64,000 bases of DNA from the human T2T-CHM13v2.0 reference genome, Homo sapiens. Below are positions 28,410 through 39,630 of this stretch, in pieces (position 1 is the stretch's first letter; every line of letters begins with the position of its first letter). Made by a program: the position numbers and the translations under genes. Under the pieces are notes generated by a model. It saw only the letters and a program-made list of their open reading frames with translations. It searched no databases and was not told the DNA's origin. Location: NCBI RefSeq assembly GCF_009914755.1, contig NC_060941.1; one strand, 5' to 3'.

Positions 28410-30520
28410 TATTTATTTTTTATTTTTCCATGGGTTATTGGGATACACGTGGTGTTTGGTTACATGAGTAAGTTCTTTAGCGGTGATTTGTGAAATTTTG
28501 GTGCACCCATCACCCAAGCAGTATACACTGCACCCTATTTGTAGTCTTTCATCCCTTGCCCCCTCCCACTTTACCCCCAAGTCCCCAAAGTCCACTGTGT
28601 CATTCTTATGCTTTTATGTCCTCCTCATAACTTAGCTTCCACATATCAGTGAGAACATACGATGTTTGGTTTTTCATTTCTGAGTTACTTCACTTAGAAT
28701 AATAGCCTCCAGTCTCACCCAGGTTGCTGCAAATGCTGTTGATTCATTCCTTTTTATGGCTGAGCAGTATTCCATTATATATATATCACAGTTTCTTTAT
28801 CCACTCATTGATTGATGGACATTTGGGCTGGTTCCACATTTTTGCAATTGCAAATTGTGCTGCTATAAATATGTGTGTGCAAGTATCTTTTTCGTACAAT
28901 GACTTCTTGTCCTCTGGGTAGATACCCAGTAGTGGGATTGCTGGATCAAATGGTAGTTCAGCTTTTAGTTCTTTAAGGAATCTGTTTTCCATAGCGGCTA
29001 TACTAGTTTACATTCCCATCAGCAGTGTAGAAGTGTTCCCTGTTCACCGTATCCATGCCAACATCTACTGTTTTTTGATTTTTTGATTATGGCTATTCTT
29101 GCAGGAATGAGGTGGTATCATATTGTGGTTTTGATTTGCATTTCTCTGATCATTAGTGACATTAAGCATTTTTTCATGTTTGTTGGCCATTTGTATACTT
29201 TTGAGGCTTGTCTATTCATGTGCTTAGCTCACTTTTTGATGGTATTGTTTCTTTCTTGCTGATTTGTTTGAGTTCCTTGTAGGTTCTGGATATTAGTCCT
29301 TTGTCAGATGTATAGATTGTGAAGATTTTCTCCCACTGTGTGGGCTGTTTACTCTGCTGACTGTTCCTTTTGCTGTGCAAAAGATCTTTAGTTTAATTAT
29401 GTCCTAGCTATTTATATTTGTTCTTATTGCATTTGCTTTTGGGTTCTTGTTCATGAAATCCTTGCCTAAGCCAATGTCTAGAAGGGCTTTTCCAATGTTA
29501 TCTTCTAGAATTTTTATAGTTTCAGGTCTTAGATTTAAGTTCTTAATCCATGTTGAGTTGATTTTTGTATAAGGTGAGAGATGAGGATCCAGTTTCATTC
29601 TCCTACATGTGGCTAGCCAATTATCCCAGCACCGTTTGTTGAAAAGGGTGTCCTTTCCCCACTTTATGTTTGTGTTGGCTTTGTCGAAGATCAGCTGGCT
29701 GTAATTATTTGGGTTTATTTCTGGGTTCTCTATTCTGTTCCATTGGTCTATGTGCCTATTTTTATACCAGTACTATGCTGTTTTGGTGATTATGGCTTTA
29801 TAGTATAGTTTGAAATCAGGTAGTGTGATGCCTCCAGATTTGTTCTTTTTGCTTAGTCTTGCTTTGGCTATGCAAGCTCTTTTTTGTTTTTGTATGAATT
29901 TTTCTAATTCTGTGAAGAATGATGGTGGTATTTTGATGGGGATTGTGTTGGATTTGTAGATTGTTTTTAGCAGTATGGTCATTTTCACAATATTGATTCT
30001 ACCCATCCATGAGCATGAGATGTGTTTCCATTTGTTTGTGTCATCTATGATTTCTTTCAGCAGTGTTTTGTAGTTTTCCTTGCAGAGGTCTTTCACCTCC
30101 TTGGTTAGGTATATTCCTAAGTTTTTTTTTTTTTCAGCTATTGTAAAAGGGGTTGACTTCTTGATTTGACTCTCCGCTTGGTTGCTGTTGGTGTATAGAA
30201 GAGCTACTGATTTGTGTACATTAATCTTGTTTCTAGAAACTTAGCTGAATTCTGTTATCAGTTCTAGGAGCTTTCTGGAGGAGTCTTTAGGGTTTTCGAG
30301 GTAAACAATCATATTGTCAGCAAACAGTGAGAGTTTGACTTCCTCTTTACTGATTTGAATGCCCTTTTACTGATTTGAATGCCCTTTACTTCTTTCTCTT
30401 GTCTTGCTCTGGCTAGGACTTCCAGTAGTATGTTGAAGAGGAGTGGTGACAGTGGGCATCCTTTTCTTGTTTCAGTTCTCAGAGGGAGTGATATCAGCTT
30501 TTCCCCATTCAGTATTATGT
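28410..30520 (-). mobile_element. Older L1 (L1PB1-like), 3' part; host of the L1PA3 insertion
   Basis: L1PB-type 3'UTR at 28420-28620 and degenerate ORF2 fragments (29773-30096, 29404-29598, 28786-28992). Confidence 0.85.
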
Positions 30521-30864
30521 TGGCTGTGGGTTTCTTTTTTTTTTTTTTATTGGTGCAAATTACTGTTTATTAAGCATTATTTATTCCTTATGCAAAACAA
30601 ATGTGCACTAGCCTTTGGCATTAACTAAACACTCTCTACATATTTCTTTTTTTATTATTATTATACTTTAAGTTTTAGGGTACATGCGCACAATGTGCAG
30701 GTTAGTTACATATGTATACATGTGCCATGCTGGTGTGCTGCACCCATTAACTCGTCATCTAGCATTAGGCATATCTCCCAATGCTATCCCTCCCCCCTCC
30801 CCCCACCCCACAACAGTCCCCAGAGTGTGATGTTCCCCTTCCTGTGTCCATGTGTTCTCATTGT

Positions 30865-34684
<3,820 letters not shown>

Positions 34685-34747
34685 TATGATGTTAGCTGGT
34701 TATTTTGCTCGTTAGTTGATGCAGTTTCTTCCTAGTCTCGATGGCCT

Positions 34748-35764
34748 TTACATTTTGGCATGATTTTGCAGTGGCTGGTACCGGTTGTTCCTTTCCATGT
34801 TTAGTGCTTCCTTCAGGAGCTCTTTTAGGGCAGGCCTGGTGGTGACAAAATCTCTCAGCATTTGCTTGTCTGTAAAGTATTTTATTTCTCCTTCACTTAT
34901 GAAGCTTAGTTTGGCTGGATATGAAATTCTGGGTTGAAAATTCTTTTCTTTGAGAATGTTGAATATTGGCCCCCACTCTCTTCTGGCTTGTAGAGTTTCT
35001 GCCGAAAGATCCACTGTTAGTCTGATGGGCTTCCCTTTGAGGGTAACCTGACCTTTCTCTCTGGCTGCCCTTAATATTTTTTCCTTCATTTCAACTTTGG
35101 TGAATCTGACAATTATGTGTCTTGGAGTTGCTCTTCTTGAGGAATATCTTTGTGGCGTTCTCTGTATTTCCTGAATCTGAATGTTGGCCTGCCTTGCTAG
35201 ATTGGGGAAGTTCTCCTGGATAATATCCTGCAGAGTGTTTTCCAACTTGGTTCCATTCTCCCCGTCACTTTCAGGTACACCAATCAGACGTAGATTTGGT
35301 TTTTTCACATAGTCCCATATTTCTTGGAGGCTTTGCTCATTTCTTTTTATTCTTTTTTCTCTAAACTTCCCTTCTCGCTTCATTTCATTCATTTCATCTT
35401 CCATCGCTGATACCCTTTCTTCCAGTTGATCGCACCGGCTCCTGAGGCTTCTGCATTCTTCACGTAGTTCTCAAGCCTTGGTTTTCAGCTCCATCAGCTC
35501 CTTTAAGCACTTCTCTGTATTGGTTATTCTAGTTATACATTCTTCTAAATTTTTTTCAAAGTTTTCAACTTCTTTGCCTTTGGTTTGAATGTCCTCCCAT
35601 AGCTCAGAGTAATTTGATCGTCTGAAGCCTTCTTCTCTCAGCTCGTCAAAGTCATTCTCTGTCCAGCTTTGTTCCGTTGCTGGTGAGGAACTGCGTTCCT
35701 TTGGAGGAGGAGAGGCGCTCTGCTTTTTAGAGTTTCCAGTTTTTCTGCTCTGTTTTTTCCCCAT
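34748..35764 (-). pseudogene. L1 ORF1p, 338-codon frame broken by a CGA>TGA stop at 35471-35473
   Basis: MGKKQSRKTGNSK... through ...PLQNHAKM* in one frame, with a single internal stop after KTKA. Confidence 0.93.
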
Positions 35765-36665
35765 CTTTGTGGTTTTATCTACGTTTGGTCTTTGATGATG
35801 GTGATGTACAGATGGGTTTTTGGTGTGGATGTCCTTTCTGTTTGTTAGTTTTCCTTGTAACAGACAGGACCCTCAGCTGCAGGTCTGTTGGAGTACTGGG
35901 CCCTGTGAGGTGTCAGTCTGCCCCTGCTGGGGGGTGCCTCCCAGTTAGGCTGCTCGGGGGTCAGGGACCCACTTGAGGAGGCAGTCTGCCCGTTCTCAGA
36001 TCTCCAGCTGCGTGCTGGGAGAACCACTGCTCTCTTCAAAGCTGTCAGACAGGGACATTTAAGTCTGCAGAGGTTACTGCTGTCTTTTTGTTTGTCTGTG
36101 CCCTGCCCCCAGAGGTGGAGCCTACAGAGGCAGGCAGGCCTCCTTGAGCTGTGGTGGGCTCCACCCAGTTCGAGCTTCCCGGCTGCTTTGGTTACCTAAT
36201 CAAGCCTGGGCAATGGCAGGCGCCCCTCCCCCAGCCTCGCTGCCGCCTTGCAGTTTGATCTCAGACTGCTGTGCTAGCAATCAGCGAGACTCCGTGGGCG
36301 TAGGACCCTCCGAGCCAGGTAAGGGATGTAATCTCCTGGTGCGCCGTTTTTTAAGCCTGTCGGAAAAGCGCAGTATTCGGGTGGGAGTGACCCGATTTTC
36401 CAGGTGCCGTCTGTCACCCCTTTCTTTGACTAGGAAAGGGAACTCCCTGACCCCTTGAGCTTCCCGAGTGAGGCAATGCCTCGTCCTGCTTCGGCTCGCG
36501 CACGGTGCGCGCACCCACTGACCTGCGCCCACTGTCTGGCACTCCCTAGTGAGATGAACCCGGTACCTCAGATGGAAATGCAGAAATCACCCGTCTTCTG
36601 CGTCGCTCAACGCTGGGAGCTGTAGACCGGAGCTGTTCCTATTCGGCTATCTTGGCTCCTCCCCC
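35765..36665. promoter_or_regulatory. L1 5'UTR: CpG-rich sense promoter (-) and antisense promoter (+)
   Basis: Complete ~900-nt 5'UTR with dense retained CpGs over 36170-36650. Confidence 0.85.
36213..36458 (+). CDS. LINE-1 ORF0 (antisense, 81 aa; MAGAPPPASLPPCSLISDCCASNQRDSVGVGPSEPG...)
   Basis: GCAATGG Kozak context at 36213 and the recognisable ORF0 N-terminus. Splice donors fall at nt 106 (36318|GT) and nt 191 (36403|GT), the known ORF0 SD1/SD2 positions. Confidence 0.75.
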   Translation: MAGAPPPASLPPCSLISDCCASNQRDSVGVGPSEPGKGCNLLVRRFLSLSEKRSIRVGVTRFSRCRLSPLSLTRKGNSLTP

Positions 36666-36681
36666 TGGCTGTGGGTTTCTT

Positions 36682-39630
36682 ATAGATGGCTTTTATTACA
36701 TTGAGGTATGTCCCTTGTATGCCGATTTTGCTGAGTTTTAATCATAAAGCGATGCTGGATTTTGTCAAATGCTTTTACTGCATCTATTGAGATGACCATG
36801 TGATTTTTGTTTTTAATTCTGTTTATGTGGTGTATCACATTTATTGACATATCACATTTATTGGTATATGTTAAACTATCCTTGCATCCCTGGTATGAAA
36901 CCCCCTTGATTATGGTGAATTATCTTTTTGATATGTTGTTGGATTCAGTTAGCTAGTATTTTGTTAAGGATTTTAGCATCTATGTTCATGAGGGATATCA
37001 GTCTGTAGTTTTCTTTTTTGGTTATGTCCTTTCCTGGTTGTAGTATTAGGGTGATTCTGGCTTCATAGAATGAATTAGGGAGGGTTCCCTCTTTGTCATG
37101 TGGAATAGTGTCAAAAGGGTTGGTACCAATTCTTCTTTGAATGTCTGGTGGAATTCTGCTGTGGATCCATCTGGTCCTAGACTTTTGTTGTTGTTGTTGT
37201 TGGTAATTTAAAAATTACCATTTTAATCTCGCTGCTTGTTATTGGTTTGTTCAGGGTATCTAATTCTTCCTGATTTAAGCTAGGAGGGTTGTATTTTTCC
37301 AGGAATTTATCCATCTCTTCTAGGTTTTTTAGTTTAAATGCAAAGGTGTTCATAGTAGCCTTGAATGATCTTTTGTATTTTTGTGATGTCTGTTGTAATA
37401 TCTCCTGTTTTGTTTCTTATTGAGTTTATTTGGATTTTCTCTCTTCTTTTCTTGGTTAATCTTGCTAACAGCATATCAATTTTATTCATATTTTCAAAGA
37501 ACCAGCTTTGTGTTTCATTTATCTTTTTTATTTTTTTGTTTCAATTTCATTTAGTTCTGCTCTGATCTTGGTTATTTCCTTTTGTCTGCTGGGTTTTGTT
37601 TGTTCTTGTTTCTCTAGTTCCTTGAGGTATGACCTTAGAATGTCAGTTTGTGCTCTTTCAGTCTTTTTGATGTAGGCATTTAAGGCTATGAACTTTCCCC
37701 TTAGCCCCTCCTTTGCTGTATCCCAGAGGTTTTGATAGGTTGTGTCACTATTATTCAGTTTGAAGAACTTTTAAATTTCCATCTTGATTTCATTTTTGAC
37801 TCAATGATCATTTAGGAGCAGGTTATATAATTTCCATGTATTTGCATGGTTCTGAAGGTTCCTTTGGAATGGATTTCCAGTTTTATTCCACTGTGGTCTG
37901 AGAGAGTGCTTGATATAATTTCAATTTTCTTAAATTTATTGAGGCTCATTTTGTGGCCTATTGTATGGTCTGTCTTGGAGAAAGTTCCATGCACTACTGA
38001 ATAGAATGTGTATTCTGCAGTTGTTGGTTGGAATGTTCTGTATATATCTGTTAAGTCCATTTGTTACAAGGTATAGTTTAAATCCATTGTTTCTTTGTTG
38101 ACTTTCTTTCTTGATGACCTGTCTAGTGCTGTCAGTGGAGTATTGAAGTCCCCCACTATTATTGTGTTGCCGTCTATCTCATTTCTTACGTTATTAGTAA
38201 TTATTTTATAAATTTGGGAGCTCCAGTGTTAGGAGCATATATGTTTAGGATTGTGATGTTTTCCTGTTGGACACGGCCTTTTACCATTGTATAATGTCTC
38301 TGTCTTTTTTAACTGCCGTTGCTTTAAAGTTGGTTTTGTCTGATATAAGATAGCTACCCCTGCTTACTTTTGGTGTTCATTTGCATGAAATATCTTTTTC
38401 TACCCCTTTACTTTAAATGTATGCGAGTCCTTATATGTTAGATGAGTCTCCCGAAGGCAGCAGATGGTTGGTTGGTGATCTTATCCATTCTGCTGTTTTG
38501 TATTTTTTTAAGTGGAGCATTTAGACCATTTACATTCAGTGTTAATATTGAGATGTGAAGTACCATTCCATTCCTCATGCTATTTGTTGCCCATGTGCCT
38601 TGGTTTTTTTGTTTTTGCTTTTCAAATTGTATTTTTGTTTTATAGGTCCTGTGAGCTTTATGCTTTAAAGAGGTTCCATTTTGATGTGTTTCCAGGATTT
38701 GATTCAAGATTTAGAGCTCCTTTTAGCAGTTCTTGTAGTGGTGACTTGGTAGTGGTGAATTTTCTCAGCATTTGTTTGTATCCTTCTTTCATATATGACG
38801 CTTATTTTTGCTGGATACAGAATTCTTGGCTGATAATTGTTTTGATGGAGGAGGCTGAAGATATGGCCCCAGTCCTTTCTAGCTTGTAGGGTATCTGCTG
38901 TTAATCCTGATAGGTTTTCCTTTATAGGATACCTGGTATTTTTGTCTCATGTTTTTCTTTATAGGTTACCTGGTGATGTTTTTGCAATGAATTTCCCAGG
39001 TGTTCTTTGAGCTTCTTGTATTTGGATGTCTAGGTTTCTAGCAAGGCCAGGGAAGTTTTCCTTGATTATTCCCCCAAATATGTTTTCCAAACTTTTAGAT
39101 TTCTCTTCTTCCTCAGGAACACCAATTATTCTTAGATTTGGTCGTTTAACATAATCCCAGCCTTCTTGGAGGCTTTGTTCATATTTTCTTATTCTTTTTC
39201 CTTTGTCTTTGTTGGATTGGGTTAAGTCAAAGACCTTGTCTTCGAGCTCTGAATTTCTTTCTTCTACTTGTTCAATTCTATTGCTGAGACTTTCCAGAGC
39301 ATTTTGCATTACTAGAAGTATGTCCAATGTTTCCTGATGTTTTAACTGTTTTTTCTTTATTCTATCTATTTCCTTGAATATTTCTCCCTTCACTTCTTGT
39401 ATTGATTTTTGGATTTCCTTGCATTGGGCTTCACCTTTCTCTGGTGCCTCCCTAATTAGCTTAATAACTAACCTCCTGAATTCTTTTTCAGGTTAATCAG
39501 GGATTTTTTTCTTGGTTTGGATCCATTGCTGGTGAGCTAGTGTGATTTTTTGGGGAGTGTCAAAGAGCCTTGTTTTGTCATATTAATTACCAGAGTTGGT
39601 TTTCTGGTTCCTTCTCATTTGGGTAGGTTA
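36682..39630 (-). mobile_element. Older L1 (L1PB1-like), 5' part: ORF2 N-terminal half and ORF1 remnant
   Basis: ORF2 sequence resumes directly after the TSD. EN fragment 37812-38060; ORF1 fragment 38959-39393 (KRPNLRIIGVPE). Confidence 0.85.

What the first reader, a model, noticed from the sequence alone, without database searches (positions are those of the whole stretch)
30537..30660. 3' transduction: ~94 bp of non-L1 DNA with its own poly(A) signals, inside the TSDs
Seen (- strand): L1 3' end and short A-tail (~30660-30643), then non-L1 sequence 30642-30549 (TATGTAGAGAGTGTTTAGTTAATGCC...TTTGCACCAAT) with two AATAAA (30580-30585, 30566-30571). A second poly-A follows 17 nt later (30548-30535), then the TSD (30521-30536). 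Known: this is the standard signature of read-through of a source L1's weak poly(A) signal. The tag identifies the parent element. The source's TSD is predicted to begin near AAGAAATATGTAGAG.
Basis: partly seen in the sequence, partly recalled or inferred. Interest (0 to 1): 0.72.

Follow-up and report, generated by a model that had tools for sequence, protein, structure and literature searches.

The report
L1 carrying DNA from vanished parent
An old human jumping gene (LINE-1) on chromosome 17 carries 100 bases whose only other copy found lies on chromosome 18, where no LINE-1 sits now, so it was likely copied from a parent element that once sat there and was likely lost; this is an ordinary, well-known process.

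Summary
A full-length L1PA3 (minus strand, 30649-36665), then 100 bases of non-L1 DNA, then 14 A, sit between two perfect 16-base target-site duplications. The extra DNA has one other copy in the genome, contig 18:6360958-6361057, with 2 mismatches in 100. No L1 abuts that copy. It starts exactly at an L1-endonuclease-like site (TTTT|AAGAAA), has no A-tail or duplication of its own, and is followed by T-rich DNA. The nearest same-strand full-length L1, 31 kb upstream, is 6.1% divergent and of an older type, so it is not the parent. No sibling was found. Best reading (0.85): a standard 3' transduction whose source L1 is absent from this assembly, most likely because it never became fixed. Such 'parentless' transductions are already described (17 of 18 in one dog study). 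The element is already annotated as L1PA3 and as an alternative promoter of PRKAR1A and ARSG. Whether any ape or person still carries the parent could not be tested. New instance of a known kind; low interest.

The parts
36666..36681 (-). 5' copy of the 16-base target-site duplication
   Evidence: exact match, 2 copies in window, 0.01 expected
30649..36665 (-). Full-length L1PA3, short-5'UTR type (lacks the ~129-base segment); ORF1 34748-35764 has one premature stop at codon 98; ORF2 30865-34684 has two frame changes and two in-frame stops
   Evidence: labelled L1PA3 in supplement rows of PMC4908685 and PMC10879037
30649..30656 (-). L1's own AATAAA (30651-30656) and remnant of the A-tail, inferred to be inherited from the source element
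30549..30648 (-). Transduced 100 bases; second copy at contig 18:6360958-6361057 (+), mismatches at window 30635 and 30575
30580..30585 (-). AATAAA, upstream copy (31 bases before the tail), also present on contig 18
30566..30571 (-). AATAAA 17 bases before the tail; the likely signal used
   Evidence: use of this signal is inferred from spacing
30535..30548 (-). Terminal poly(A), 14 A; the last two overlap the duplication, the first three may be templated
30521..30536 (-). 3' copy of the target-site duplication
28639..30520 (-). Old host L1 ORF2 region, downstream part (about 74% identical to the young element)
36682..38396 (-). Old host L1 ORF2 region, upstream part (about 72% identical), collinear with the downstream part

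Best explanation
The chromosome 17 L1PA3 carries, inside its target-site duplication, 100 bases that match one L1-free site on chromosome 18, and it was likely copied from a parent L1 that likely once sat at that site and was likely lost from this lineage. Steps: (1, inferred) an active L1PA3 inserted at contig 18:6360957/8 on the + strand, at an endonuclease-like site in an intron of an MBT-domain gene on the other strand; (2, inferred from established L1 biology) polymerase II read through its weak poly(A) signal and short A-tail and was cleaved 17 bases after a flanking AATAAA, ahead of T-rich DNA; (3, hallmarks shown, process inferred) the RNA was reverse-transcribed in full into an old L1 in ARSG by target-primed reverse transcription, leaving a 16-base duplication and an A-tail; (4, inferred) the parent allele stayed polymorphic and was lost, while the daughter persisted and decayed.
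For: Single second copy, 2 mismatches in 100, E 5.3e-41; the 3' 24-mer has exactly 2 matches in the genome at up to 2 mismatches, control 0. The shared stretch starts at TTTT|AAGAAA; of 14,909 A-run starts in 226 kb around it, 294 (2.0%) follow TTTT and 539 (3.6%) are TT|AAAA, AAGA or AAAG. It ends 17 bases after AATAAA, with 42% T downstream against 26% background. The contig 18 copy has no A-tail and no flanking duplication. One duplication encloses both L1 and tag. The tag's strand is opposite to the MBT exons on either side (6373243 and 6331934, minus strand), which disfavours capture of the host gene's RNA. Parentless transductions are described as the majority in dogs: 17 of 18 and 24 of 27.
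Against: The parent is not seen; its existence is inferred from a junction motif with a 2-4% chance background, using a motif set recalled from the literature. No ape or other human genome was available. No sibling supports the source. An unseen intermediate element carrying the same tag would leave the same structure. The same junction also reads as a pyrimidine tract plus AG, like a splice acceptor. The published parentless cases I read are young, still-segregating dog insertions, not fixed primate ones.
Confidence: 0.85

Rival explanations
1. Same transduction, but the parent was fixed in an ape ancestor and later removed cleanly from the human lineage by recombination between its two duplications.
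For: A clean excision leaves one copy of the target site, which is what contig 18 shows.
Against: Nothing in one genome separates this from never-fixed; precise excision is rare (recalled, no call). In a table of 12 human cell lines no L1 is listed on chr18 between 5.69 and 7.97 Mb of GRCh38, which fits both readings.
Confidence: 0.05
2. Spliced read-through or trans-splicing: L1 RNA from elsewhere was joined to the chromosome 18 sequence at a splice acceptor, so no L1 ever sat at the site.
For: Ten of ten pyrimidines followed by AAG precede the tag; 70 of 14,909 A-run starts (0.5%) have such a tract. Splicing-made L1 chimeras are described, though at the 5' end of L1.
Against: It needs a donor at the very end of an L1 A-tail. 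The only same-strand full-length L1 within 199 kb upstream is 6.1% divergent, keeps the ~129-base segment and has no GT after its tail; none of 5 A-run-G|GT motifs upstream lies at a + strand L1 3' end. The daughter keeps the AAG, as a target-site duplication predicts.
Confidence: 0.04
3. Template switch or RNA ligation: reverse transcription began on an unrelated polyadenylated chromosome 18 RNA and moved to the A-tail of an L1 RNA.
For: Such chimeras exist; A-rich microhomology is present at the junction.
Against: Described chimeras place the non-L1 part 5' of L1. The tag is antisense to the host MBT gene, matches no RNA family above E 0.16, and starts at an endonuclease-like site.
Confidence: 0.04
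4. Reverse direction: chromosome 18 holds a 5'-truncated copy made from the chromosome 17 element, or the tag is part of a common repeat.
For: None beyond the symmetry of a two-copy match.
Against: No A-tail and no flanking duplication on contig 18 (longest shared word 5 bases), whereas chromosome 17 has both. The tag is two-copy; the old-repeat-like hits begin at query position 336 or later, outside the tag (202-307).
Confidence: 0.02

Closest known systems
L1 3' transduction (described in passages of PMC9311842, bioRxiv 10.1101/2021.07.12.451456 and PMC10883270)
   Same: L1 3' end, short A-tail, unique DNA with its own AATAAA, second A-tail, all inside one duplication; 100 bases lies between the median (63) and mean (206) in PMC9311842 Table 3; about 15% of L1 insertions carry one according to PMC10883270.
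   Different: The source L1 is missing at the donor site, so a parent-daughter sequence comparison is impossible in this assembly.
'Parentless' 3' transductions (PMC7980453, PMC13141329; dogs)
   Same: Transduced DNA aligns to a site with no adjacent L1; explained there by a dimorphic parent.
   Different: Those are young dimorphic insertions whose parents may still segregate. This daughter is an old, decayed L1PA3 present in GRCh37, GRCh38 and this assembly, so the parent was likely lost long ago.
L1PA3, short-5'UTR type
   Same: 6.02 kb; lacks the ~129-base segment that the older L1 on contig 18 has; deletion described in PMC5860796 and PMC10883270; listed as chr17:68408123-68414142:-:L1PA3.
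   Different: Private or recurrent changes: a G-to-A change in the 5' YY1 motif region relative to 4 of 4 compared elements, a 7-base deletion near position 699, broken ORFs.

Membership tests
L1 3' transduction, parentless kind | Non-L1 DNA between the L1 3' end and the terminal A-tail, inside one target-site duplication | tested here: met
L1 3' transduction, parentless kind | High-identity copy of that DNA elsewhere in the genome | tested here: met
   98% over 100 bases at contig 18:6360958
L1 3' transduction, parentless kind | Poly(A) signal 10-30 bases before the new tail, templated at the donor site | tested here: met
   AATAAA 17 bases before the tail in both copies
L1 3' transduction, parentless kind | No L1 adjacent to the donor copy | tested here: met
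   nearest L1 match is a 530-base, 79% fragment on the opposite strand 3.2 kb upstream
L1 3' transduction, parentless kind | Parent exists as a dimorphic or lost allele | not testable with these tools
   no other primate or human genome is held; weak negative in a 12-cell-line table
L1 3' transduction with surviving parent | Same-strand, same-subfamily L1 directly upstream of the donor copy | tested here: not met
Transduction family with siblings | Two or more daughters share the tag | tested here: not met
   11 best short-motif hits fetched, none extends (one was read on the wrong strand)
Target-primed reverse transcription product | Target-site duplication, A-tail and endonuclease-like cut site | tested here: met
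   16-base duplication, 14 A, site AT|AAGA, an imperfect motif
L1PA3 | Best match to the L1PA3 consensus | not testable with these tools
   no repeat library held; label taken from two published tables; 3' UTR columns fall between the younger relatives and the older contig 18 element
L1PA3 short-5'UTR type | Lacks the 129-base 5'UTR segment | tested here: met
   gaps of 98 and 30 bases at positions 765-770 against the older element

The most novel reading that the evidence does not exclude
The tag gives the exact address of an extinct source element of the L1PA3 branch that had just shed its ZNF93-binding segment, and that parent still survives at the orthologous chromosome 18 site in one or more apes (sorted by incomplete lineage sorting or excised cleanly in humans). 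Parent and daughter could then be compared directly, including the origin of the promoter variants in a daughter that now serves as an alternative promoter of PRKAR1A.
Probability: 0.15. Interest if true: 0.45.

Novelty: new member of a known kind. Interest (0 to 1): 0.25.

Why it matters
As one case it is ordinary. It does show cleanly that a fixed-looking old L1 can record the base-exact position of a parent that is gone from the genome. Catalogues that require a surviving parent would miss such cases; collected genome-wide, they would measure what share of ancient source L1s never became fixed. The locus gives one exact, cheap test in ape assemblies.

Tried and rejected
Upstream full-length L1 at contig 18:6323805-6329947 as parent: rejected (366 mismatches in 6,000 aligned bases, 6.1%; keeps the ~129-base segment; older 3' UTR columns). 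Other L1 matches in 226 kb around the site (22 pieces): none abuts the tag; two younger pieces are on the minus strand. Siblings: search with the tag (2 of 2 candidates), with 1,101 bases of the donor region (6 matches: self, chr17, 4 old-repeat-like hits outside the tag), and three short patterns. One search gave 240 matches against 210 for its control, so it is at chance level; I fetched the 11 non-self hits with 0 or 1 mismatch, and identity beyond the motif was 6-17 of 41. L044 was read on the wrong strand there; it appears to be a duplicate of L036. The 227 two-mismatch hits were not examined. Whole-element search scored only 30 of 20,075 candidates; I compared 3, all 2.6-3.2% divergent, so the closest relatives may have been missed. 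Rfam scan of the donor locus: 1 weak match, E 0.16, outside the tag. Literature: searches listed no paper on this transduction. Szak 2003, Pickeral 2000 and the journal version of Hoyt 2022 were not held. Supplements of the Hoyt preprint, PMC9311842 and PMC13192797 could not be seen and may list this event. Supplements of PMC13174262 had no ARSG, PRKAR1A or L3MBTL4 row; its coordinate rows were not all read.

Full report
Observation. On the minus strand the window holds a 6.02 kb L1 starting at 36665, its AATAAA at 30651-30656, a short A run, non-L1 DNA, 14 A at 30535-30548, and a 16-base duplication at 30521-30536 and 36666-36681. The duplication has 2 matches in the window against 0.01 expected. 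The flanks are an older L1, 72-74% identical to the insert and collinear across it, and the tag has no match to it (best other window hit 15 bases, E 1.0).

The element. ORF1 has one premature stop; ORF2 has two frame changes and two in-frame stops. A 452-residue ORF2 piece matches solved human ORF2p at E 4.6e-294. It lacks about 128 bases near position 770 that an older L1 has; passages of PMC5860796 and PMC10883270 describe this 129-base loss of the ZNF93 site around L1PA3. Supplement rows label it L1PA3 in GRCh37 and GRCh38, detected in 9 of 12 cell lines. Three fetched relatives differ by 2.6-3.2%; they came from 30 scored of 20,075 candidates. An age of roughly 10-13 million years for L1PA3 is recalled, not from a call.

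The donor site. A genome search with the tag gave 2 matches from 2 candidates: self and contig 18:6360958-6361057. The copies differ at 2 of 100 bases (95% interval 0.2-7%), in line with the element's own divergence. A 24-base pattern from the tag's 3' end has exactly these 2 matches at up to 2 mismatches; a middle pattern has these 2 plus 2 three-mismatch hits, control 1. Upstream is unique DNA ending in TTTT, with no L1. Among 14,909 A-run starts in the surrounding 226 kb, 2.0% follow TTTT and 3.6% fit a three-motif endonuclease set; without conditioning, a seven-motif set occurs once per 211 bases. These motif sets are recalled. The match ends 17 bases after an AATAAA, and the next bases on contig 18 are 42% T against 26% background, as expected of a working poly(A) site. 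Contig 18 has no A-tail or flanking duplication, which sets the direction as chromosome 18 to chromosome 17. MBT-domain exons lie on the minus strand on both sides; the gene name L3MBTL4 is recalled.

Search for a parent and siblings. In 226 kb around the site there are 22 L1 matches. The only full-length same-strand element ends 31 kb upstream; it differs by 6.1%, keeps the 129-base segment and has no splice donor after its tail. No sibling was found by the tag search, by 1,101 bases of donor region, or among the 11 best short-motif hits (one read on the wrong strand; 227 two-mismatch hits not examined, overall count at chance level). A published table for 12 human cell lines lists no L1, reference or not, between chr18 5.69 and 7.97 Mb in GRCh38. 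That the donor site falls in this interval is inferred, and the table also misses the older L1 nearby, so this is weak evidence that the parent is not common in people.

Mechanism. Shown: the anatomy, the single donor copy, the empty site with its motif, the templated poly(A) signals. Inferred: that a source L1PA3 sat at the site, that read-through ended at the flanking AATAAA, and that the parent was lost without fixing (0.85 together). Rivals are precise excision after fixation (0.05), splicing to the acceptor-like junction (0.04; 10 of 10 pyrimidines then AAG), template switch (0.04) and reverse direction (0.02). An unseen intermediate with the same tag cannot be excluded and does not change the origin of the tag.

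Comparison with what is known. 3' transduction by read-through of a weak signal is standard; the Hoyt preprint reports 183 highest-confidence L1 cases in CHM13 (passages). PMC7980453 and PMC13141329 (passages) name transductions with no L1 at the donor site 'parentless' and find them to be the majority in dogs (17 of 18; 24 of 27). This locus meets every feature of that kind that could be tested and fails the test for a surviving parent. Eight searches (listings only) showed no paper on this event, but Szak 2003, Pickeral 2000 and the journal version of Hoyt 2022 were not held (nothing seen), and the supplements most likely to list it could not be read (bioRxiv files closed). Also seen: PMC9311842 passages, PMC4908685 passages and supplement rows, PMC10879037 supplement rows, PMC13174262 passages and a supplement search, PMC13192797 passages.

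Verdict. A real, clean 3' transduction whose donor site is found and empty. New member of a known kind, interest 0.25. The open question worth one look is whether any ape still carries the parent (probability 0.15, interest 0.45 if so).

Noticed in passing
window 36146-36318 (+): The RefSeq alternative PRKAR1A exon lies at L1 positions 348-520, in the antisense promoter, and ends at a GT donor. L1-PRKAR1A and L1-ARSG ESTs from this L1PA3 are already published (PMC4908685).
   Followed up: yes
window 36641-36665 (-): G-to-A change in the 5' YY1 motif region relative to 4 of 4 compared L1s. Published methylation of this copy ranges from 0.01 to 0.95 across 9 cell lines.
   Followed up: partly
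window 34397-34430 and 31467-31521; L031, L032, L033: L031 and L033 show no indel against this element at its first ORF2 frame change and also stop at codon 97; L032 shows none at the second. Their 3' UTRs differ, so recurrent slippage plus search bias toward rare shared words is likely.
   Followed up: partly
window 30346-30390: About 20-base tandem duplication inside the old host L1.
   Followed up: no
G000:C18:6194216-6196012 (L024/L025): A young (97% identical) 5'-truncated L1 on the minus strand with a 160-base inverted piece, the pattern expected of twin priming.
   Followed up: no
G000:C18:6323805-6329947 (L012): This full-length older L1 is not listed in the 12-cell-line table of PMC10879037, so that table is incomplete and weak evidence for absence at the donor site.
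   Followed up: partly
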